64,000 nucleotides of DNA from positions 8,744,001 to 8,808,000 of the forward strand of contig NW_024704743.1 in assembly GCF_018977255.1 (NCBI RefSeq), given 5' to 3'. Positions 822 to 47,814 of this stretch are shown here, piece after piece (within the stretch, counting starts at the first letter, position 1; each line of letters opens with the position of its first letter). The stretch comes from Callorhinchus milii (taxonomy: Eukaryota). The notes beneath the pieces were generated by a model. The model was not told the DNA's origin. It ran no database searches and saw only the letters and a list, made by a program, of their open reading frames with translations. The position numbers and the translations under genes are program-made.

Positions 822-1080
822 TTTAGCTGGTTAGACTTCAGCAGTACCCCAAAACACACTATAGGGTCCCCAAGCCTTGGCTGTTGCCAACCTGCGCCTA
901 ATACTTTCCAGAATTAGGTAAGTAGGATGTGTCCCTCCAGGGAGATAGTGCGCATTTCATTCCAACAATCTGTCTCTGCGATTTCCATGTGGAGGTGGGA
1001 TGCATAGTTACAATATCAGTTTAGTTAGGATACTCTTAAGCATGATGATGAGTTTCCGCATGGCAGATACCAGACTGATA
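822..1080 (+). repeat. Unclassified interspersed repeat (3' fragments also at 9300-9390 +, 13630-13725 + and 17935-17985 -)
   Basis: Shared blocks including ggatactcttaagcatg.tgatg.gtttccgcatg. Confidence 0.78.
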
Positions 1081-1238
1081 ACGCCCTCATAAAAAAACAG
1101 TTGTTATTGTTTACTCACCCCGGCTAATGTAAACATAAATATGGTTTTGTGATCTGACCATCAATGACACCACCTGCTTGGGAAGTACCTACAGAGGAGG
1201 ATACGCCACTTTTTTAAAACAGATCTTTTTCCCTTTAG

Positions 1239-1438
1239 GTGAGCTTCAACATACGTATTACAGCAAACACGTGCCTGGGTAAAGGAAAGAAGGCAACTGT
1301 TGAAATCAAACCGATAGGTTTCAGTGAGAGGGTCAAAGTTACCCTGAGGGTTATTTGTGAATGTGGGTGCCAAGAATTGGCTGTTGTTAACAGCCCAGAA
1401 TGTTACGGGAATGGAGCGCTTGAGTGTGGAGCCTGCAG
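1239..1438 (+). CDS. Integrin beta-1-like gene, internal exon (end of hybrid domain + I-EGF1); equivalent to ITGB1 exon 11
   Basis: Polypyrimidine acceptor ccctttAG|GTG and donor AG|GTAGGT; 200 nt. Encodes VSFNIRITANTC...IKPIGFSERVKVTLRVICECGCQ...GNGALECGACR, colinear with ITGB1 VQFEISITSNKC...[23 protein letters not shown]...GNGTFECGACR. Confidence 0.96.
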
Positions 1439-1505
1439 GTAGGTCACTAACCTGGCTACGAAGCAGTAATAGTAAAATTAGCCAGAGCGCTGAAGGAGTA
1501 ATGAA

Positions 1506-1735
1506 TAATAATAATCCTTGTGTTTGATATAGCGCTTTGCCACATCATTGAGACGTTTCAAAGTGCTTCACAGAATATACTGTAAAGTGAATTAACCCTA
1601 TATTTTGTGGACGAAACGCGGCAGTCAATTGCGCACAGATAGTTATGGAATTGAGTAAGGAAATTTGCCTAAGCTTTTGCCCTGTCGGGGAAGGGAACCC
1701 AGGTCCTTTCGCTTGTGAAATGAGTGCTCTAACCA
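1506..1735 (-). mobile_element. Deu-core SINE (internally deleted) in an integrin intron
   Basis: (AAT)n tail, partial core and head. Confidence 0.82.
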
Positions 1736-2274
1736 ATACTGAAATTGTTAATCAAGACAGGAAACCAACCTAGAATATATGCTGACATCACCTAGAGGGT
1801 AATTTGATTCACCGTTCCTTCAGTACGAGCACTTCCGTAATGGTCCCTTCAAAGCTGCAATAAATGGCTCAGTATCATTACAAATAACGTTATTAAAGCT
1901 GTCAGCAATTTAAATGACTTTAAATGAAAACCCGAGACATCTCACCTAGTCTTAGTCTGTAAATCGATTTAGTCTTCAAATTTAAGATCATATTAAAAAT
2001 TGTTAATTTCTTAAATTCAGGCTTAATTTAGAATTTAGTTTTCCACAAAGAACCCGCTTCAAAATTTAGAATGAACTTTAAGACAAATTACAGGTAAGAT
2101 GTGATAGAAGTCATCAATTCCCAAAGGTTGTTCTATTGGGCCTGATATGGTGTAGAGCCAGTCAGCCTTGCTGCTCCACACTGATCTGCTCCTGGAAGCA
2201 AACTGAATGTGTTTTATAAGCGCATAGTCATTGTCAGCAATATGAAAAAACGTGGCTGTTTTTATGAACTTCAG

Positions 2275-2513
2275 ATGTCGTGAGGGACACGTCGGACAGC
2301 ACTGTGAATGCGATATCAGTGACCTGGATAGCGAGGAACTGAATGCTTCCTGCAGGAGAGACCGTACAGCTCCAATTTGTAGTAACATTGGAGATTGCAT
2401 CTGTGGGGAATGTGTCTGCCCAAAGAGGGAAAGTCCTAATGAAATCATCTCAGGCAGATATTGTGAATGTGACAACTTCAGCTGTGAACGATCCAATGGT
2501 TTAATTTGTGGAG
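2275..2513 (+). CDS. Integrin beta-1-like gene, internal exon (I-EGF repeats); equivalent to ITGB1 exon 12
   Basis: ttcAG|A acceptor and GAG|GTATGT donor; 239 nt; phase-compatible with both neighbours. Encodes [12 protein letters not shown]...[14 protein letters not shown]...[22 protein letters not shown]. Confidence 0.97.
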
Positions 2514-2833
2514 GTATGTTTTTTTAATTTGTCGGCAAGAGCAGAAACTCTAATGTGTGTGGATAAAAGACACAATAATAATAATAATCCTTATGTTTCA
2601 TAGACTGCATTTCACTTCAAAAGGATATTTCAAAGTTCTTCAGGGATTCACCATAAAACACGTAGTGACTGTTTATTTTGTAGGAGAATGTAGCAGTGAA
2701 TTTGGGCAATTCACTTTGGGTACTGTGAGATCCAGATAACATCATAACATCACTTTGTTGTTCAAAGCACAACCAAGGTGTGCCAAGAGGGAACTCCTGG
2801 ATCAAAACAACCTTGATCTTTTACTATTCGCAG

Positions 2834-3056
2834 GAAATGGTGTATGCACTTGTGGATGGTGTCAATGCCGTGATAACTTTACTGGCAGTGCCTGTGAGTG
2901 CTCACTGGACCAGTCAACATGTATTTCAAGGAACGGACAGATTTGTAATGGCAGAGGAATATGTCAATGCGGTCGTTGCAAATGCATGGATCATATATAC
3001 GTAGGCCCTACTTGTGACGTATGTCCAACTTGTCTTGGACTTTGTGACGTATACAA
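2834..3056 (+). CDS. Integrin beta-1-like gene, internal exon (I-EGF3/4); equivalent to ITGB1 exon 13
   Basis: ttcgcAG|GA acceptor and AA|GTAGGT donor; 223 nt. Encodes [50 protein letters not shown]...[12 protein letters not shown] with ITGB1 cysteine spacing. Confidence 0.97.
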
Positions 3057-3728
3057 GTAGGTGGACTTCATCATGAGGATATGATTTTTAACTGGAATGT
3101 TTAGTTATAAGCAAAACTAATGTTTTTGAATGAAGAGATATTAGTGCTGGAAAATGTTTCCATTTGGGCATTGGGCTTGTAAAGCTTCTCATGTTTTAGG
3201 CTTAAGAGCATTGCCTTAAAATTCCAGAACTTGCATAATTTCAGAAAATGCTCTTAAATTTGTTCTTAATTTGCAAGCCAATTTTGTACATTCTTTGTAG
3301 GATTTGCAGAAAATTAAGATTTTTTTAATTTATGATTTAATTTGAGATTGTTTTCCAAAATCCTGAACACTCTTAAATTAAACAGTAAATCTTGCATTGG
3401 ATATAGATCATTTCATGTCACAAAGACATTTTAAAGCGGTTCAAGTGATTTACTGTAATGTGTAGTGACTATGTATTTTCGAGGCAAATGAATGTGATGA
3501 ATTATGCCTATGAACATGAAGAATTTCGGACCCCTGATGTTTTGTGTTGACTTGAACAGTAAATTCATTTGTCATTAAATAGAAGCTTCAAGCATCTTAA
3601 AAAAATATTTTAAGGCTGCGAGACATCATGGAACCTTAATTTTAAGGGACCAACCTTAAATGTTGTAATTGGATAGGATATTTTCTTCTTATTTTTGCTC
3701 ATTCTTTGTTCTCTTTTGCAACACTTAG

Positions 3729-3937
3729 GGACTGTGTTCAATGTAAAGCCTTTGGGAAAGGACCTAAGAAAAATACATGTGATCAGTGCGAGTTTGAAGT
3801 GACATTGGTGGAGCAGTTACCAGAATCTGAGTCTACTGTTCCTTGCAAGGCAAGGGACGAGGAGGACTGCTGGTTCATGTACACTTATTCTCTTTTTGAC
3901 CAGAATGTCCCTGTTGTTCACGTCGCTAAAATCCAAG
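3729..3937 (+). CDS. Integrin beta-1-like gene, beta-tail domain exon; equivalent to ITGB1 exon 14 (extends to stop at 3978 if the donor is not used)
   Basis: cttAG|G acceptor and AAG|GTGAGA donor; 209 nt. Encodes DCVQCKAFGKGPKKNTC...CKARDEEDCWFMYTYS...VVHVAKIQ, versus ITGB1 ECVQCRAFNKGEKKDTC...CKEKDVDDCWFYFTYS...MVHVVENP. Confidence 0.95.
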
Positions 3938-4048
3938 GTGAGAATAATTTTCTCAGATCATGTGCCTCAATATTGTAATAACGTTATTTGATTTTATTTG
4001 TAATGTCTTCAGAAAGATAGCATAGCAAATAATGCCTTGTGCTTGACA

Positions 4049-4054
4049 AATAAA
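4049..4054 (+). terminator. Candidate polyadenylation signal for a read-through terminal form of the integrin gene
   Basis: AATAAA 70 nt after the in-frame TAA at 3976-3978. The context is AT-rich, so it could be chance. Confidence 0.3.
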
Positions 4055-7000
4055 AAGGATCAATAATTTATGTTCAGATTGCACTTTCCATGTCGGGAGG
4101 ACATCTGAAAGCACTTCACACAACTGACTGGGAGCCCAAGCTGGGGATGGGGGGAACTGAGAATGGTTAGGAAGAACCCCAGATGGAATTATGCAGAGCA
4201 GGGCAAGATGGTGGAGCAGATCAGGCAGCGACATGAGGATTCAATGAGCAGAGAAAGCGGCCAGGATGGACGGGTTGGAAGAGGGCCTAGATATAGGGGT
4301 GAGCGAGGCCATGGAATCATTTTAATACAAGGACGAGGATCTTTATTTATCTGCTGGAGGATGGGAAGTCAGCACGTTTTAACATTCCAAGATGCCGTCC
4401 AGTGTGAAGGGCGCTATATAAATGCAAGTTGTTGTATTCGGTTGAGGATGTTGGCGATCATGTCATTTTCAAAAGCAAATAGTGAAGGAATTCTGTACAA
4501 GAATATGTGAATATACTAGAATGATTCCAACACGTTCTGTGTTTGTTTTTTTGCCATTCTTCAGGGTTGCAGTGCACTTTATTTTAAAGGCTTGCTTTCC
4601 CATTACTTCCATCTGTTCAGTGTGGTGGAAATCACAGCGACAATTGTGAAATAGAAGACAGGCATTTCCCACAGGGAAGGGGGAGAAAATCAAACCTACA
4701 GGTCCCATTATTGTAACAGAACCCTTTCAGTCACTTGAAGCATGCTGTGGAATCAGCCTGCTTCTTAATAGCATTCTCTTCTCGTATCTATTTGTCAGCT
4801 CCCTACAGCAAAGAAAGAGCTTCCAATCAGACGGATGAGTCAAACAAAGGAAAAATAGCTATTGCCCCAGTGAGAACATGAAAGTTAGGGATGAGTCATG
4901 ACAGCCACTCAATAGATACCTGCAATTACATTTCAATGGGAAAAGAAAAATGATCAGGGATTTTTAAAAAGGTACAATTTACTGTATTTTTATTTAAAAT
5001 TTCAGTAGATGCATGCCACTACTGAATTGTTAATGCCCATAGTGAACACTTTTATGAGTGCATATTGAAGTATTTATATCTCAGATTAATACTGGTGGCA
5101 TTTATGACATATATTAGCATATGTAAGAGTTTTCGCTGTGGGAAATGGCTGTGGTAGTTTCACAAAAGGACATTATTGCATGGTTAAAAACATCTTCCTA
5201 TGTCTGCACACGGCAAAACCTCATTTGTGCTGGAAAACTCGCTGCAGGACAAGTATCACTGAGGATCCAGATGTGTTGGATGATGAGTGATCCAGTGAGC
5301 TCAAAACACTGTCCTCACAGTCAGACCTTATCTATGTCTTCTTCTGAATTATTGATTCAATTAACTCAGTTGATTGAACAAGTGTGTGAATATGCTGTTT
5401 GTTTGATATCTGCGTCTGTCATCTGCCGTTCCTGGTAGAAGTGATAAATGAGTTGAAGGGACATTATTTTCTCAAATGTTAGGCACCGAGAGAAACAACA
5501 GTGCTACCTTTCAGCAATAGCACCTGGGGCATGCAGTCATTATTCATTGTTAACACTGAGTGACGATGTGACATTAATGGATAGAAGTTCTCATGCCTTC
5601 TGAATATTTAACCACTTTACTGTCTAGACTTGTAAGAAAAATGTGTTGTATGGTTTAATACGCAGATTTGTTTCAGGCCCCTACAGTCTGCATAATTTTA
5701 AATAAATGTATGCCGCATATAATATTACCCTTGAAAATGCAGTAGAGAGCTGATTATCTGCACTAATTGGGACTGCCTGTTGTGGATAAGGAAACGATGC
5801 AGATAACTGGTCATCAGTCTAAATACAAATTGGTTCCGTTGCTAACCAAAAAATAATTACATTGGGAGTTGCATATTTTCGTTATAGTACTGCACTGTGT
5901 ATGTCCTTCTCATTTCTTTCGTCATTCTTACTCTCTCGTTATTTCTCCAACTCTTTCTTCTTTTTTCTCTCTCCCTCTCTTTTGAGTCTTTTTCTCTCCA
6001 ACACAGCACCCCCCCCCACCTCCCCGAATCACCAAGTCAATGCTGCACTCTCTCAATGATGGTGAGCATCATGCCAAGTTAGCATTGAATTTTCAGATCA
6101 TAGCCTTTGCTGCTGATTAGCATCATACTTGTCTTTTTACTAAACAAACAAAAACAAGGCAGTCAGTAAAATGACCTCCGGCTCATCCAGGGAACGTTTG
6201 ATGTGATAAACATTGATTTGCTAAATTGACCCTAATGTCTAAACAAAAACATTATTTTGTGAAATCCTTGTGGTCTTCAAGGTAAAGTGTGTCCAGAGTT
6301 GGAAAACAGAACTTGTTTCCATTTGGGGCATTCAGTTTGTCTCACTTGTGTATTGATATACTTTGTTGGAGTTTTAAGTAAGGAAGATGTTGGGCTTCTT
6401 GCAGCCAACGCCACAAGATCGCCAGATTGGTTCTGATGAAAGAGTACCTTTCAGCCCAAACATCTCAAACTTTGACCCATTTGAACTTGGTTTGTTTTGT
6501 GTTTGAAATCTTCCGCATTGCAGCTGGGAGCTCACTCCTTCTAATTCACAGGAAGGACATTTATGCACTTTCATGATGTTTACTGGGAAAATTGAGCAAC
6601 TAGATGAATAAATAAGCAGTGTGGGGTTGGGAGATTTCCTGTGTCTGCAGCATGTGTCTGCAGCATAGATGGTTTTAAAGGGATGATTTTTTTGCAGCTC
6701 AACATAGAAAGATCATTGTGATCCATCTTACTTGCACCAGTAAAATACAAATCGTACAAAACTTTTAAGTCCTCAATGAATTTCTTCGTCAGATAGCTAT
6801 CTAATTCTATCTTTAATTTGCTGACTAAGCATCTTAATCTCTTTGGTGGCTAGTCTATTCCACTAACCCCTGAGGAAACTAATTAAATCTAAACTGTTCA
6901 CATTCTTTCTGGATTTTCTGGGTTCTAATCACCATGTTGTAGAGTTTAACCATGTCAGACATAATAATAATAATCTTTGCCTCTGGAGTAGCAGTTTATC

Positions 7001-10000
7001 ATGTTGTCAAAACTTCTGAAAACACTTCACAAGAATGTATAATGACTTACCGTGAATGTGTAGTGACTGTGTAATGGTAGGTGAATGCGGTAGGTTGGCA
7101 CTGTGTGTGGGGAGACCTGGGCACAGAGAGGAAACGACTTGCATTGTGTGGTCTGAAAGAAGGGCTGGAATTATATAGTGGAGAAGAAGAGCTGGCACTG
7201 TGTGGTGCTCGAGTGACTGCATAACATTTGGTGGAAGCACTAAAGGTCGTACAAGTCAGTGTAAACTATATGGGGTTTTCTGTTGGGGATTACACAAGAG
7301 GATTTATCAGTGAGCAGTGTGCCAGTAAAGCTACTGATCTCCTGAGCAACAACTACTACAAATTACATCTTTATAGCGCCTTTCACATTGGGAGGACATC
7401 CCAAGGCGATGGACAGTCAAGGATTTGCGCTAGAGCTGAGGTTTGGGTTCAGGAAAGGTGGAGGGCAGGAAGGGTGGGAGAAGGAGGGTGAAGAAAGGAG
7501 AATCTTGAGACAGACAAGGGAGCAGTGCTTTTTCAACCCCGTAGTACTCCAGGTGATGACCTGATATCCTCACTGTCTTGATATCCATAATGGATTGGTC
7601 TCCATTAGTGGGGTTGTGGGGCTCCTTACTGTATAAATAAAACACATTGTTTTTTTTCCTTTAACATCGAAATGGCAAAAAAACAACATGCAGAATGAGA
7701 ATATCTAGCCATTCAATAACAAAAGCATTTGATGGTTTCCTTCCAGAAAATTGCTGAACAGGCCACGGTCACACTGGACGATCTAAGCCACAGCAACATC
7801 AGATTGAACACAGCAAAGGACACAGATCATTTCTCAGATGACCAGACTCCATGAATAGGATGTAGCATCAACTCCAACAAGTGTTCCATCCTCAGGCAGT
7901 GATCTGCCACAGAGACCTCAGAACCAATGGATTATATTTCTGATTGCTGTTGCTTTTAGTTAGAATACGTATCCTGGTCGATTTACATGACCTTTTTACA
8001 AAGATGTATTTGATGGATATGTAGCATTGCCAATACTGAGATGGAGTAGTACTGCTCTTTCCTCATCCTCAGATTTGCAATTGCTAAATGTTGCAGATTT
8101 GTTTATGAACTGCAGTGTGTATCCAATTATAACCATGCAGTTTATCTTAACCAGAAATCTATTTATTCTGACAGTGCACATTCCGCACATATATTTTAGA
8201 TTCCTTATTTCTAGTTGTGTCTTTCCAATAGGCAGACAATACGTCAATATTCAGAAGGCATTTTTTTTAACTGAAAGCAGTATGACAAAGCATAATAAAA
8301 CGAAAAGCCTCCTGAGTGTGTCTCTGCAATTTCCTACTTTATCTGTACTGTTATATCATTGCATTTCTTTACCATTTTTTTCTTCAATTTTCTCCCCTTT
8401 CCTGAAAGCTTTTGCCTCCAACTTCTTTCTTCCGGGATCTGTTTCACAGGCTCTGACTGCTGTCCAGTAACTTGCCGAACTGGCCAGATTCTATCCGTGA
8501 GCCTTGATGGTGAGTTTGATAAGCTTTTCAAGGGCTGGAATGTTACAGCTGAGTTTGCTCCTGTCCTCACCTGCTATACACGTGTGGCTAGCTTCCAGCA
8601 GGGCTTTCTGCACAAGGACCAGGAGTAGGAATCCTGATTGGGCTGTTTTTCAGATAGGTTCATTAAATACAACAACAACTTGCATTTATAGAGCACTCTT
8701 CACTTGTGGTAGTGTCACCAGAGAGCAGCCTCCAATATATAAGTGTAGCTTCTTGCACACTAAGTTTGGTTCAAGCTATGGGGCAGAGATAAAATTAACC
8801 ACAGTAAAAATCTTAATTGACCCTTTTTGTAAGGGATATGCTAGGGCTTGACTGACTGGATCAAGTAACACTATTTGACTGGGATGGAGCATTTATTTGC
8901 ATGCACCCTCTGAGGATGAATTTTGCTGTTGTCAGAATGTAAAACAAAAGGAATATCAAAGAGGGTAACGAAAAATCTCTCAAATTCAACCAGAGGTTTT
9001 GAAGATCAAGTCAATCAATGTCTTCAAAAGATCATAAGATTGGTTTGGATGAAGAAGGCCCTTCGGCCAATATGATCTCATTCTTCCCACCCTTCTGATT
9101 ACAGAATCAAGCTGTTTTTCTTTTTAAATGAGCCCATCATTTACCCAATTGGTAAAGAAATTCTTCCAGGTGTCTGTCCTGAAATTTCCCTTTGCAACAC
9201 CAAATTTACATCCTCTTCTACTGTTTCGTGCATCCAAAATATCTGATGTATGCATCCAGGTGTTTCCAGGTGTCTGGTGAGGAAACCCATTACTATGACC
9301 CAACTCTGTTTGGTTTGAATATTCTTAAGCATGGTGATGGGTTTTCACCCAGCCTGGATCGGATAATCATCTTCAGGACACTGGTCAATAATCAGAAGTA
9401 AACAAAGCTTAACGTGTATCTAGCTGTGCAAATTATATGGAGTTTTTATTTAGTTGGATTGTAACAATGGTAAGATTGAATTAAATACAACAACAACAAG
9501 ATTCCATAATAATAGTATAAGCATACTTGGAATAAGATAGCGCTATTTGTCCCATAAAGCAGATTCTATCCGTTGCTCAATGCACCTTAATATTGTCGTT
9601 AAATGCTGATTCATTAAATGGAAAAAGCCCCTTCACTCTTTATCTCCATGGTGATTGAGCAGAAATGGTACTATCCCTATGACCTTCAACCACTTCAACC
9701 CTAGGTATTCTGAAATGCACTGACCCAGAAAACCATGAATGAAGAATCAGAAGGGAAATGGAAGAAAGAATCATAGGAGGCCATTCAGCCCATCGTGTCT
9801 GTGCCGACTCTTTGAAAAAAGCTATCCAATTCGATCCCACTCCCCCACTCTCCCCATATCCCTGCAAACTTGTCCTCCCCAACTAATTATCTACTTCACT
9901 CTTAAAAGTTTTTAGCAAATTGGCTTCCACCACCCTTTCAGATGAGAGAGAGAGATAGATACTTGGGAAGTAAAAATAGTAAAGGATATAGTGAGGGAAG

Positions 10001-11769
10001 CCAAAGAAATGGGATTATAAGAGGTTGTAGCATATGGACCATGGAATGGTCTGTGGTACAGTTAATTGCCTCATGTTCTTAATTTCCCATATTCCTTAAG
10101 TAATCAGTTGATGCAGAATTAAGCATTTGTGTGGAAGCCTATTCTATAATCCGGTGTGGGGGGGAGTGGTGAACTTTTAGCTTTTAAGTCTTGCTCTAAG
10201 TTTGTAATATCTCAGCAAAGTGATAAGTCATGGTATAATACTATAATATAATATAAGTGATATGTGGTAATAACTTAATTAGGCGTTATATCAAATGCAA
10301 GAATTATTATTAGCTTTTCCCACGTAAGAGCACTGCTCTTGTGGATGTTTGTTCTTTTGTCTTTTATTTCCTTGTGTATTTTGTTTTACATTTTATTTAT
10401 GACATGGTTCATAGTTGCTAAGAACACCACATTTATCTCAGGAACTGTTCAAACCTTGCCCAAGGGGTCCTCACTCAAGGTCACCATCCCCAATTGCTGC
10501 AAGGAACACAAACATAATGTGCTCTTGCAGTGCTGGAGACTTCACTTAATGGCATACTCCACAAAACAAGCTCTTTTTTTTTTGGCAGTCGGCAAAATGA
10601 AATAGTTGGGAAGGAGAACAGAAATGTCAACGGGTTTGATGAGAAAATTATTCTAAGGTTAAAGTTCAGGCTGAGATATGTGAGCAATGCTAGTTATGCT
10701 TAGAGTTCCTGCAGTATTGCAGATAGATACATTCTAATGGGATGGGAAGAGCTAATTACAATGTATGTCTGCGAATATCAGAAAGCATTTCATTTGCAAT
10801 ACTTGGGGCAAAGCTGGAATTTAACCAGCTAAAACTATCTGGCAAACATCCCGTTGCTTGTCCAACTAAGAACACCCTATCTGTTAGGGCTTCAGTTTGC
10901 AGTGTTAATAGGAGTAAATGGGAAGAATCCCTGGTCTCAAGTATGCTCTTCAAGTCCAGGCCGGCTGGTCTGCCATTAAAAGAGTGCCCTGGACTCAGCA
11001 ACTGCAATACTGAGACCATCACTGAGAGGATCAACTCCATTCTGCTATTCCACTATCAACCACAACGCTTTGGATTAATATTTGCAAAATGGTTAGTTTT
11101 AAAAAAAAAAGAATGTGAAAAAGGCGGTAGAACAAAACAACACAGGTATTTTTGCTCTCTGGGCATCTTTGGAAAGTGCAACTCTCACAGGTTGCAAACG
11201 GAAGTGGTAATTAGTGCTTCCCATTCTATTGCAAATATTGCAAACTGGATCTTAATGGCAGCTTTATTCACTTCCCACCATTGGAATGCTCTGATCTGAC
11301 CAATTCAAACATTGGTTCTTGATGGTTGGATGACTTAACAGACTTTAATTTGAGGTGTTTATGATTTTGATTCTAATCCCCACAAAAATGAAATTAACTT
11401 GTAAAGCTGGAAATTAGCTTCATACATTAAACTGTGAGAAATGTTGACAAACCACAGTGCTGGAGTTTAAAAAGCCTATGGTTGGCTTTTCTGTGCGAAT
11501 TGTGGGGTTAGTGAGAAATTCACACTCATTTCCTCTTCTAAACAAAACATGTCACCAAATAGCTTCCTGCTTTTCATTTATTGCATTGTGTCTAATTATT
11601 TTAACATAAATTTCAAAATTTACCTTTAAAAGAGCATATTTTAACTTCTGATTATTAGTCTGATATAAAACAGAGCCCCATACATGTTTCTCAGACATTT
11701 ATAACTAACTTGATCCTAAATAATCATAGTGTTTATATAGGATCTTTCATGCCAAGAGGATGTCTCGAA

Positions 11770-13057
11770 GTAATTCACAGTATGAAAACAGCCCTGATCA
11801 AGGAGACAAATTACATTTTGTCCATCTGTGATCAGGGCTCCATCTGTCTCCCCATCCTCCTTGACCTCTCTGCTGCCTTTGACACCGTGGACTACTTTAT
11901 CCTCCTCCACCGCCTCTCCTTGAATGGTTCAGATCCCATCTTTCACACCGGCTCCACTTTGTCTCCACAAATGGCTTCTCCTCCAGCCCCTGCACCATCT
12001 CATGCGGTGTTCCTCAGGGCTCTGTCCTCGGTCCAAATGTGGCATGTACTTCACCCTGTACGTGCTTCCCCTCGGTGACATCATCTGCAGACATGGGTCA
12101 ACTTCCATATGTACGCGGATGAGACCCAACTCTATCTCTGCCTCCATCCTTGACTTTAGGACCACTGTCAGACATCAAGTTCTGGCTGAGAGCCAACTTT
12201 CTACAGTTGAACTTCAGCAAGACCAAGGCTTTTCTGATTGGCTCACGCCAGTGCCTCCACACCTCAGGCACTGGTAGCATCAGCATCCAAAGATGCACAC
12301 TCCACCTCACCAAGCCAGTCAGGAACCTAGGGATTTTGTTCGACCTTCAACTGTCCTTTCTCTCCCACATCCGTACCACGACCTGCTCTGCCTTCCCCTA
12401 CCACCGCAACATTGTCCGACTCCACCACTGCCTCACCCCTCAGGCCACCAAAACCCTCATACATGCCTTCATTACAACCAGGCTTGACTATGCCAATGCC
12501 CTGCTTGTCGGCCTTCCCAACCCTTCCCTCCACAAGCTGTGAATCATCCAGAACTCTGAGGCTCGTGCCCTCTCCTGTACCAGGCTCCGGGACCCTATCA
12601 CACCCACCCTCGCCCAGCTCCACTGGCATTCCATCCCTCAGAGGATCTAGTTCAAAATTCTCGTCATCACCTTCAAGGCCTCTGCCCCCTCCTACCTCTC
12701 CGACCTGCTCACCCCTTATCAACCTGTCTGCTACCTCCACTCATCAGCCTCCAGCCTGCTCCATGTCCCCCGCCCAGCCTGCCCTAAGGTCAGCGGTCGG
12801 GCTTTCAGCCTCTCTGCCCTCACCCTCTAGAACTCCATCCCACATTCCCTTCGCCTTGTTCCCTCGCCTCCATCAAGGCACGCCTCAAGACCTTTCTCTT
12901 CAACCATGCCTTCGGCCACCCTCCAACCCTTTCTGCCCTCCACTCGCCCTAATCCCAACCCCCTCGCCCCCGCGCTTGGGTCCTAATCCCCAACTGTTCA
13001 GTGCCTTGGGATGACCTCCCAACATGAAAGGCGCTTTACAAATGTAGTTTTGAATTG
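11770..13057 (+). mobile_element. Degenerate L2 LINE (RT to 3' end)
   Basis: [21 protein letters not shown] and RLDYANALL in shifting frames with stops; L2 3' tail. Confidence 0.93.
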
Positions 13058-13885
13058 TAATATACTTTGTAGGCAAACGTGGCAGCGAATATGTGTGCAG
13101 CAATTTTGCACAAACAGCCACAAAATGAAGGCCAATTTATCATGGGGATTTTTGGTTAGGACTCCAGAAGAAACAAATGTTCAACATCCACCTGACAGGC
13201 AGGGAGGACATCAGTTTAACGCATCATCTGAAGGACAGCACCTCCGACAATACAACACTTCCCCAGCATTATTATTGGGAGTATTAGCCATAACTGTGTG
13301 ACCTCAAAGCTTAAACCCCAAACCTTCTGACTCAGAGACAAGAGATCACCTGAGCCAAGCTTGGTATTAATTACTCTCCCCACGAGCTCAGTTGTAGCCG
13401 TTTCCCCTATAATTTTCATTGCCCCTTTATTGTGCATTGCATAAAACCTGCATTAAACCTACACATGAAAAACTTGTAAACCAAAAATAGCTTGAAATAC
13501 GTTTCTGGACATTCATCAGCACTGTATTAGGAACCCAGGTGTTAGTCGATTGGTGGATTGTTTTTCTGGGGGTTATACTCCCTTAAAAAAATGAGAAATC
13601 AAAAAAAAATCTGGTCACTCAATCCGCTGTGTAGGCGATGCATGGAACTCTGTTTGGTTTGGACACTCTTAAGCACGGTGATGGGTTTCTGCATGTGTCA
13701 GACACCCGGCTGACCAAAACAAAATGAGCTCACCGTCCGATAGAAGCCAAACACAATTAATATTCTGGCACGTGAATTATGAATGTGCAAAAGTTCTAAG
13801 TCAGCCCCCTTGCAGGGAAGTCAGATACAATTAAAGGGGTCAGTTATAGGATCAAGTATCTGATTGCCAGTCACTAAGTAACAAA

Positions 13886-13918
<33 letters not shown>

Positions 13919-13927
13919 GTCTGTCTA

Positions 13928-13961
<34 letters not shown>
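13886..13961. repeat. Compound microsatellite (ATCT)n(GTCT)n
   Basis: Read directly from the sequence. Confidence 0.95.
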
Positions 13962-14749
13962 CTTGTAACACGATATTTAACAGGCTGGTAATGTGAATGA
14001 GCTATCCTGTTATTTTTATTGTGGGAGACAGGAAGAGAGACTTGTGTGAGTCTTGGCTTGGTGGTTTTGATGCCAGGAAGTTATTTCCAACCTTTGTGAC
14101 ACATGCAACTCAAATTCAGCAGTCACCAGCAGAGGGTAGCCTTGCTGTGTGTGTCTCAGATGGATGTTACCAGGTTTTGCTTTCCCAGAGATGGCATGTT
14201 CGAGGAGCCATCCTGTTTAGATCACATCCAAATCCCAGACCAAGCACTTTATACATGCCACCCTTTATGTTGGTTTAACATTGATTTTGTACTTAAGAAT
14301 ATTGGCAGACTTTTATCTTACACTGAAACAGCCAGAGTTATGCAACTAAGGTTTGTTAACACAGTATGCTTTTTTGATTCACCTTGTCCAGGAGTTTTCC
14401 TTTAACAGATAATGGTGGTTGGTGAACATTCATAATTACATAGCATTGAGTAGTAAATACAGCACTTAAACAGGCCATTTGGCCAGATTAGTCCATGCTT
14501 GTGTTTAATTCCACATGAGTTTCCACCCATTCTAATCCCCTCTTCCACAGCCTCCCCCATACGCTTCTATTCCCTTCATTCTCACTTAATCACTTGTGGA
14601 CAACCTTGAGATGTCACATCACACTTTCTGTGGGATATTGAAAGGTACCATGGTATAACAGAACCTTTGCTTGCCTTGTTCAAATATTTACTGATAGCTT
14701 TGCAAATCTCCAGGCATAGGATCTTAGGTTGGAGAAAGCAAATTACAGG

Positions 14750-47527: not shown

Positions 47528-47814
47528 TCAGGCCTCGGAGTATGAATTTTGTGTGCTAAGTTTGTCCTTTTTCAGTTTCACTCCATCTACGAGTTCAAAG
47601 TTGTAGTTCTCCAAAGCTGAAAGATTTCTGTCAGACAGTGCGCTGTGCCAGCAGGCACAGTACAGGACCACTCCGCAGATGGCCCCCAGAATGACTCCCA
47701 GCGCGCTCATGGCTATAATAGTGATGAGAATGGGGTCAAGGGTCTTCAGTACATTGCCAGGACCCCCAGAGCTCCCACCAACGGAGTCATTAGTGGGATC
47801 CTCAGGGTCATCGA
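47528..47814 (-). CDS. NRP1: Neuropilin-1, terminal coding exon (TM + cytoplasmic tail)
   Basis: tttttcAG acceptor. Encodes PGNVLKTLDPILITIIAMSALGVILGAICGVVLYCACWH...RNLSALENYNFELVDGVKLKKDKLSTQNSYSEA*, with the GxxxGxxxG TM motif and the C-terminal SEA PDZ-binding motif diagnostic of NRP1. Confidence 0.98.

What the first reader, a model, noticed from the sequence alone, without database searches (positions are those of the whole stretch)
1239..4054. Intact integrin beta-1 paralog with no detectable transmembrane/cytoplasmic exons: candidate soluble, full-ectodomain integrin beta
Seen: four exons (200/239/223/209 nt) with canonical splice sites, consistent phases, no stops and a full cysteine pattern, so the gene looks maintained. 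After the beta-tail exon, ITGB1 needs a phase-1 exon (ECP..IIPIVAGVV..LIWKLL..HDRREF) and an NPxY/NxxY exon. I found neither on the + strand before the convergent NRP1 3' end at ~46.4 kb, which is the likely outer bound of the gene. Ignoring the donor at 3938 gives ...VAKIQGENNFLRSCASIL* (TAA 3976-3978). That tail supplies a Cys that could replace the missing ECP cysteine of the beta-tail disulfide, and AATAAA follows at 4049. Known: secreted truncated beta-1 paralogs are described in zebrafish, but as I recall they lose the EGF/beta-tail leg as well. Inference: this may be a soluble or alpha-tethered, non-signalling beta subunit that keeps the whole leg and could act as a decoy or modulator.
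Basis: partly seen in the sequence, partly recalled or inferred. Interest (0 to 1): 0.75.

Follow-up and report, generated by a model that had tools for sequence, protein, structure and literature searches.

The report
Anchorless integrin beta of cartilaginous fishes
Chimaeras, sharks and rays keep an old, expressed second copy of the integrin beta-1 gene whose protein has the whole outer part but no membrane anchor and a remodelled binding head, so it is probably released from cells instead of acting as a receptor.

Summary
The donor at 3938 is used: 3 of 3 RNA-type runs laid (2 studies) splice it to a terminal exon at 7747 that reads E-N-C-stop; the DNA run does not. The gene is an intact 14-exon inverted duplicate about 43 kb from full-length ITGB1, with a signal peptide, all 56 ectodomain cysteines and dN/dS 0.28 against ITGB1. 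Orthologues without a membrane anchor occur in 20 named chondrichthyan species plus 2 unnamed records. They form one clade and share a 15-residue deletion in the specificity-determining loop; the SyMBS metal site is lost throughout. Carps appear to have evolved a similar anchorless full ectodomain independently. Zebrafish truncated beta-1 paralogs are the published precedent. Best reading: a secreted, non-signalling, probably alpha-free beta ectodomain acting as a decoy or soluble binder. Secretion, alpha pairing and ligand are untested. New variant of a known kind; I found no paper on it.

The parts
1239..1438 (+). Coding exon 10 of 14 (end of hybrid domain, EGF1). Coding exons 1-9 (signal peptide, PSI, hybrid, betaI) lie upstream of the window at G000:C2:8723920-8738414
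   Evidence: spliced joint 1438->2275 in X1, X8, X4
2275..2513 (+). Coding exon 11 (EGF2 and part of EGF3)
2834..3056 (+). Coding exon 12 (EGF3/EGF4); included in X1 and X4, skipped in X8
3729..3937 (+). Coding exon 13 (beta-tail domain)
3938..7746 (+). Last intron (GT..AG, phase 1).
   Evidence: joint in 3 of 3 RNA-type runs and 0 of 1 DNA-type run
7747..7757 (+). Coding part of the terminal exon: completes Glu, then Asn, Cys, TGA. Stands where ITGB1 has its 167-nt transmembrane exon
7758..8308 (+). 3' untranslated region; AATAAA at 8294-8299 is the likely main poly(A) signal (one X8 contig ends at 8308; an X1 contig runs on to 8994; contigs cannot prove an end)
47531..47764 (-). NRP1 transmembrane/cytoplasmic exon (convergent neighbour, not part of the gene)
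   Evidence: PF11980 E 1e-43; translation ends in SEA-stop

Best explanation
An inverted duplicate of ITGB1, at least as old as the split of chimaeras from sharks and rays, lost its transmembrane and cytoplasmic exons and now ends at the last beta-tail cysteine (shown). It encodes a signal peptide plus PSI, hybrid, betaI, four EGF and beta-tail domains, about 680 residues mature, with no membrane or GPI-type hydrophobic segment (shown from sequence). It therefore enters the secretory pathway and cannot signal through talin/kindlin (follows from integrin biology). A normal beta-1 head folds only with an alpha subunit, helped by TM pairing, and is otherwise degraded in the ER. This protein has shed part of the specificity-determining loop, the SyMBS site and, in this species, the lysine finger, which I read as a head remodelled to fold and leave the ER without alpha (inferred). 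Outside the cell it most likely acts as a soluble beta-1 mimic: a decoy or carrier for proteins that bind the beta-1 head, hybrid or leg surfaces, not a cation-dependent matrix receptor (inferred, untested).
For: Spliced ENC-stop end in 3 of 3 RNA-type runs, one X4 contig spanning all five exons 1237-7927. Fourteen coding exons with AG/GT ends, same positions as ITGB1. 56 of 56 ectodomain cysteines kept. dN/dS 0.28 overall, 0.15 in the beta-tail, 0.24 in betaI against ITGB1. Best 19-residue hydropathy in the C-terminal half is under 1.5 in 21 of 22 orthologue records, against 3.05 in 3 of 3 full-length controls. One clade, 97/95 support, with two shared deletions (15 aa and 1 aa) in 14 of 14 truncated and 0 of 19 full-length rows. 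SyMBS E169 and N224 are lost in 22 of 22; MIDAS D259 is kept in 1 of 22, E229 in 11 of 22; both ADMIDAS aspartates in 4 of 22 (site roles partly recalled, partly from PMC1538996). BetaI falls from the most conserved domain (95% between species in ITGB1) to 59% in the paralog. The last beta-tail cysteine pair is kept here, shifted in 10 shark records and lost on both sides in 10 ray records, as expected if unpaired cysteines are selected against. AlphaFold model pLDDT 80 with a complete ectodomain fold, best match alpha5beta1 beta chain. ER folding rule: bioRxiv 10.64898/2026.10.25.761699.
Against: No protein-level evidence of secretion was found: two shark proteomics papers gave no integrin hit in what I could read and the nurse-shark protein table was too large to open. 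The lysine/arginine finger residue is still K or R in 14 of 22 records, so alpha pairing may survive in many sharks and rays. The same preprint notes that the SDL disulfide loop is not needed for alpha5beta1 assembly. This species keeps all five MIDAS residues, so metal-dependent binding is not excluded here. All domains drift faster than in ITGB1 (48-65% against 71-95%) and no domain stands out as a preserved binding surface, which also fits relaxed selection. In run X8 a frameshifting skip of exon 2834-3056 dominates. The AlphaFold alignment was mostly full-length beta-1 sequences, so the model does not show that the head folds alone.
Confidence: 0.5

Rival explanations
1. The protein still pairs with alpha subunits through its head and reaches the surface tethered by the alpha TM segment, making non-signalling heterodimers or titrating alpha subunits away from ITGB1 (dominant-negative modulator).
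For: K/R finger residue kept in 14 of 22 records; C251-C290 (C261-C301 of human beta-1) invariant; whole leg kept, as would suit packing against an alpha leg. Engineered TM-less alpha/beta ectodomains exist as solved structures.
Against: 15-residue loop deletion and a 1-residue deletion next to the finger in all rows; finger is Asp here, Glu in 2 and Thr in 5 other records; TM pairing is reported to drive assembly.
Confidence: 0.25
2. The protein works inside the ER, or is mostly degraded there: a luminal partner or buffer for nascent alpha subunits and folding enzymes, never a stable extracellular species.
For: Unpaired beta-1 is an ERAD-L substrate with a misfolded betaI domain. No secretion evidence was found.
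Against: No KDEL-type ending (ENC, xxC or KP/KL ends); tidy pairing of beta-tail cysteines in three lineages and 4-8 N-glycan sequons suggest a finished, exported fold.
Confidence: 0.15
3. A slowly decaying transcribed duplicate with little function, held in shape by gene conversion from the neighbouring ITGB1.
For: A 386-bp conversion tract at 91% identity including intron 8; long branches (0.46 against 0.09); an NMD-type skipped isoform dominant in X8; one orthologue is flagged low quality and a few models are irregular.
Against: Open frames of about 690-705 aa in most of 20 named species; dN/dS 0.15-0.41 in every domain; most flanking introns show no similarity, so conversion is local; lineage-specific conserved residues such as N269 (21 of 22) and F209 (22 of 22) differ from ITGB1.
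Confidence: 0.07
4. A membrane-anchored isoform exists through an undetected exon, or the loss is an assembly artefact.
For: Three UniRef (homology-built) models place a weakly hydrophobic stretch at 4680-4898 (hydropathy 1.95). One sawshark model ends in a hydrophobic stretch (2.15). No single DNA contig of X11 spans the whole intron.
Against: That stretch lies inside the spliced-out intron with RNA depth 0-3; RNA contigs join 3937 to 7747; no N in the window; no orphan TM or cytoplasmic exon in the genome.
Confidence: 0.03

Closest known systems
Zebrafish truncated beta-1 paralogs beta1tr-1/-2/-3 (Mould et al. 2006, PMC1538996; read parts 1-4 of 7)
   Same: Local duplicates of a beta-1 gene, expressed, no TM or cytoplasmic domain, cysteines kept, deletion in the specificity-determining loop, loss of LIMBS/SyMBS E169, altered DGKL loop, MIDAS kept; secreted antagonist proposed by the authors.
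   Different: They stop four residues after EGF-4 and lack the beta-tail; loop deletion is 9 aa, here 15; they arose recently within teleosts per that paper, whereas this gene spans all sampled cartilaginous fishes. I had no zebrafish beta1tr sequence, so its place in my tree is untested.
Carp 'integrin beta-1-like' predictions of 706-730 aa (Chanodichthys, Megalobrama, Ctenopharyngodon, Culter) and milkfish 736-747 aa
   Same: Full ectodomain, no TM segment; carp forms end just after the last beta-tail cysteine and carry a 10-aa deletion in the same loop.
   Different: Nest among teleost full-length beta-1 genes; a joint clade with the chondrichthyan gene is rejected (p-AU 2e-10). Metal sites are less eroded. 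Database predictions only; not checked with transcripts.
Canonical integrin beta-1 (ITGB1)
   Same: 68% ectodomain identity, same 13 ectodomain exons and phases, 56 cysteines, same fold.
   Different: No TM exon, HDRRE or NPxY motifs; loop deletion; SyMBS lost; ADMIDAS D138N; finger K269D.
Soluble beta-3 splice form in leukaemia (PMC4053493; abstract and outline only)
   Same: A secreted integrin beta chain reported to have activity on its own.
   Different: A splice variant of the receptor gene in disease, not a separate conserved gene.
ITGBL1/TIED (recalled, not tested here)
   Same: Secreted, integrin-beta-derived, no TM segment.
   Different: Made of integrin-type EGF repeats only; no PSI, hybrid, betaI or beta-tail.

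Membership tests
Integrin beta-1 subunit (receptor) | Signal peptide, PSI, hybrid, betaI, 4 I-EGF, beta-tail with 56 cysteines | tested here: met
Integrin beta-1 subunit (receptor) | Single TM helix and cytoplasmic tail with HDRRE and NPxY | tested here: not met
Integrin beta-1 subunit (receptor) | MIDAS residues D130, S132, S134, E229, D259 | tested here: met
   5 of 5 in this protein; complete in only 1 of 22 orthologue records
Integrin beta-1 subunit (receptor) | ADMIDAS (D137, D138) and SyMBS/LIMBS (E169, N224, D226, P228) | tested here: not met
   D138N; E169 deleted, N224S, P228A
Integrin beta-1 subunit (receptor) | Alpha-contact elements: full specificity-determining loop and DGK(L) lysine finger | tested here: not met
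   15-aa deletion; DGKLGGIV reads GGDIGSV. Finger K/R survives in 14 of 22 records
Integrin beta-1 subunit (receptor) | Forms an alpha/beta heterodimer and binds ligand | not testable with these tools
Zebrafish-type truncated beta-1 (beta1tr) | Expressed beta-1 duplicate without TM/cytoplasmic domains, with loop deletion and LIMBS loss | tested here: met
Zebrafish-type truncated beta-1 (beta1tr) | Ends after EGF-4, no beta-tail; ADMIDAS DD to SN | tested here: not met
   beta-tail present; ADMIDAS reads DN; paper text
Zebrafish-type truncated beta-1 (beta1tr) | Descent from the teleost beta1-2/beta1-3 tandem array | tested here: inconclusive
   Zebrafish sequences not in hand. The gene groups with chondrichthyan ITGB1 (96/97) and not with carp TM-less forms; an origin before the bony/cartilaginous split is not rejected (p-AU 0.23)
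Secreted protein | Detected outside cells | not testable with these tools
   Only sequence features; proteomics look-ups blank or unreadable

The most novel reading that the evidence does not exclude
Cartilaginous fishes have kept for over 400 million years (date recalled) a natural alpha-free integrin beta: a secreted ectodomain whose betaI head folds on its own after deleting the specificity-determining loop. The same solution, anchor loss plus deletion in that loop, arose again in carps and zebrafish. That would make soluble beta-1 decoys a repeatedly evolved class of fish extracellular proteins with a ligand of their own, and give a natural blueprint for an autonomously folding betaI domain.
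Probability: 0.35. Interest if true: 0.78.

Novelty: new variant of a known kind. Interest (0 to 1): 0.55.

Why it matters
Integrin beta chains are taken to be obligate membrane partners of alpha chains, and unpaired beta-1 is reported to misfold in its betaI domain and be degraded in the ER (bioRxiv 10.64898/2026.10.25.761699). A separate gene for an anchorless full ectodomain, kept in chimaeras, sharks and rays and paralleled in carps, gives a direct natural test of whether and how a betaI domain can fold and be exported without alpha, and which loop changes allow it. It also points to an unstudied soluble regulator or decoy of beta-1 biology in the oldest jawed-vertebrate lineage. Databases label it only 'integrin beta-1(-like)', so it is easily mistaken for the receptor.

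Tried and rejected
Read-through tail to TAA 3978 and AATAAA 4049: found only in UniRef models; no listed RNA contig runs from the beta-tail exon into the intron, but that table was cut, so a minor form is not excluded. UniRef pseudo-TM stretch at 4680-4898: intronic, rejected. Terminal exon as a decayed TM exon: same position and phase, but DNA similarity is not above shuffles (z -0.5; local score 101 against shuffled maximum 103), so its origin is open. Independent duplication in the chimaera lineage: not rejected on the whole ectodomain (p-AU 0.16), rejected once exon 2 and the converted exons 8-9 were left out of a 21-row subset (p-AU 0.026); the shared indels are the stronger evidence. No listed sequencing run is on record as RNA; ten are guessed RNA and I laid 3 of those 10 plus 1 of 4 others; their spliced contigs are the evidence of transcription, and contig depth does not measure expression level. 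The 50%-cluster search found no further orthologue group outside chondrichthyans among its best 150, but close relatives are collapsed there. ESM Atlas gave only hits under 0.8. No earlier scan findings matched. No complex prediction was run, since no alpha chain was in hand. Codon tests across species were not possible (proteins only). Literature searches that gave no description of this gene: (open-licence PMC and bioRxiv only); the catshark genome paper PMC11979771 has no 'integrin' in its main text.

Full report
Observation. The four exons are at the stated coordinates with AG/GT ends and splice into one open, cysteine-rich frame. The last matches the human beta-1 beta-tail. The window has no N and lies at G000:C2:8744001-8808000. 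Nine genomic clusters carry betaI exons; six carry a TM exon and PF08725, none of them near this gene. tblastn with three full-length TM-plus-tail peptides over 194 kb finds only the exons of the neighbouring full-length ITGB1. NRP1 ends convergently, with its last coding exon at 47531-47764.

The real 3' end. The only AG followed by the needed codons is at 7747. Laying four public runs on 1000-14000 shows the joint 3937 to 7747 in X1 and X8 (study P1) and X4 (study P2), and not in X11; one X4 contig covers all five exons. These runs are only guessed to be RNA, but their contigs skip GT..AG introns. So the donor is used, the last cysteine is supplied by a short terminal exon, and the stop follows at once. 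AATAAA at 8294 is the likely poly(A) signal. The terminal exon has the position and phase of the TM exon but no significant DNA similarity to it.

The whole gene. It has 14 coding exons on the plus strand (C2:8723920-8751757), head to head with full-length ITGB1 on the minus strand (C2:8680441-8659449). Exon sizes match except a 45-nt and a 3-nt deletion in betaI and small changes in the hybrid and beta-tail exons. A signal peptide and all 56 ectodomain cysteines are present. Pairwise dN/dS against ITGB1 is 0.28 (dN 0.195, dS 0.70), 0.15-0.41 by domain. This averages both branches; if all replacements fell on the paralog branch the value would still be about 0.55 (my arithmetic). A 386-bp tract over exon 8, intron 8 and exon 9 is 91% identical between the two genes, a sign of local gene conversion. 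AlphaFold2 gives a full ectodomain (pLDDT 80, pTM 0.62), weakest at residues 276-286, the alpha-contact finger region, and its best structural match is the beta chain of alpha5beta1.

Orthologues. Searches returned anchorless 'integrin beta-1-like' proteins from 19 other named sharks and rays and two unnamed assembled records. Of 22 records examined (one per species; two extra isoforms left out of the counts), 21 have no hydrophobic segment above 1.5; a sawshark model with an aberrant tail reaches 2.15; controls reach 3.05. Carcharodon, Amblyraja and Pristiophorus models have irregular ends, and some species also have shorter isoforms. In several species the truncated and full-length proteins sit on contigs of the same length and have adjacent RefSeq numbers, which suggests the same linkage; I could not read those loci. 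All 14 truncated rows share the 15-aa loop deletion and the 1-aa deletion; none of 19 full-length rows does. They form one clade (97/95), sister to chondrichthyan ITGB1 (99/98). A chimaera-only origin is not rejected on the full alignment (p 0.16) but is once converted exons are dropped (p 0.026); an origin before bony and cartilaginous fishes split is not rejected (p 0.23). The branch to this protein is long, so its place is less sure than the indels.

The head. With beta-1 numbering (roles partly recalled, partly from PMC1538996): this protein keeps all five MIDAS residues but has D138N, no E169, N224S, P228A and an aspartate in place of the finger lysine K269. Across 22 records E169 and N224 are lost in all, D259 is kept in 1, E229 in 11, both ADMIDAS aspartates in 4, and the finger is K or R in 14. 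Between four species, betaI is 95% identical in ITGB1 and 59% in the paralog; the other domains fall from 71-90% to 48-65%. The last beta-tail cysteine pair (pairing recalled from beta-3 structures) is ancestral here, shifted by three residues in 10 shark records and absent on both sides in 10 ray records. These are three lineage states, not twenty events.

How it most likely works. Shown: an expressed, constrained gene for a signal-peptide-bearing ectodomain without anchor or tail. Known: unpaired beta-1 misfolds in betaI and is degraded, TM pairing drives assembly, and the lysine finger inserts into the alpha propeller (bioRxiv 10.64898/2026.10.25.761699; abstract, passages and part 1 of 2 of the discussion read, supplements closed). 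Inferred: a TM-less beta-1 can persist only if its head no longer depends on alpha, and the deletions fall in the alpha-facing loops. I therefore favour a secreted, alpha-free, non-signalling decoy or carrier (0.5) over an alpha-tethered modulator (0.25), an ER-resident or degraded form (0.15), slow decay (0.07) or a hidden TM isoform (0.03). Against the favoured reading: the finger residue survives in most sharks, the preprint says the SDL disulfide loop is not needed for alpha5beta1 assembly, no secretion data were found, and one run is dominated by a frameshifted isoform whose stop lies 135 nt before the last junction.

Comparison with what is known. Zebrafish beta1tr paralogs are the precedent: TM-less, loop deletion of nine residues, E169 lost, DGKL altered, expressed mainly in liver and kidney; they keep EGF1-4 and lack the beta-tail (PMC1538996, parts 1-4 of 7 read). 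Carp predictions of 706-730 aa also keep the whole ectodomain, end just after the last cysteine and delete ten residues of the same loop, yet nest among teleost beta-1 genes; a common clade with the chondrichthyan gene is rejected. So the whole-leg form is not unique to this gene, and anchor loss with loop deletion seems to have arisen more than once. A trout plasma proteome lists an 'integrin beta-1-like' protein (PMC10623068, one passage); I could not check whether it is anchorless. A soluble beta-3 splice form has reported activity (PMC4053493, abstract). Nine searches of the held library gave no description of the chondrichthyan gene; subscription papers and one unread proteomics table could hold one.

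Verdict. [quoted passage not shown] It works like a soluble beta-1 ectodomain; it is not a member of the receptor class. Interest 0.55.

Noticed in passing
G000:C2:8738034-8738419 against C2:8671024-8670639 (upstream of the window): Gene-conversion tract between the paralog and ITGB1: 91% identity over exon 8, intron 8 and exon 9; weaker signs at exon 2.
   Followed up: yes
window 2834-3056: Run X8 almost lacks this exon and joins 2513 to 3729, giving the frameshifted 583-aa RefSeq isoform with a stop 135 nt before the last junction; X1 and X4 include the exon. Tissue- or individual-specific switch?
   Followed up: partly
proteins P0077, P0316-P0319, P0074, P0314: Carp and milkfish beta-1-like predictions with a full ectodomain and no TM segment; the carp forms have a 10-aa deletion in the same loop; independent origin.
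   Followed up: partly
PMC10623068, section 3.3: [quoted passage not shown]
   Followed up: no
G000:C2:8662472-8662398 and 8659514-8659449: Full-length ITGB1 here has two alternative last exons, of the beta-1D type and the beta-1A type (type names recalled).
   Followed up: no
window 1500-1750, 4070-4440, 6950-7400, 8660-10320, 11850-14000: Abundant interspersed repeats in the introns and downstream, seen as depth spikes in all runs.
   Followed up: no
window 8260-8878: Several single-base differences and a 1-base insertion in the 3' untranslated region are shared by RNA-type and DNA-type runs, so they are alleles rather than editing.
   Followed up: no
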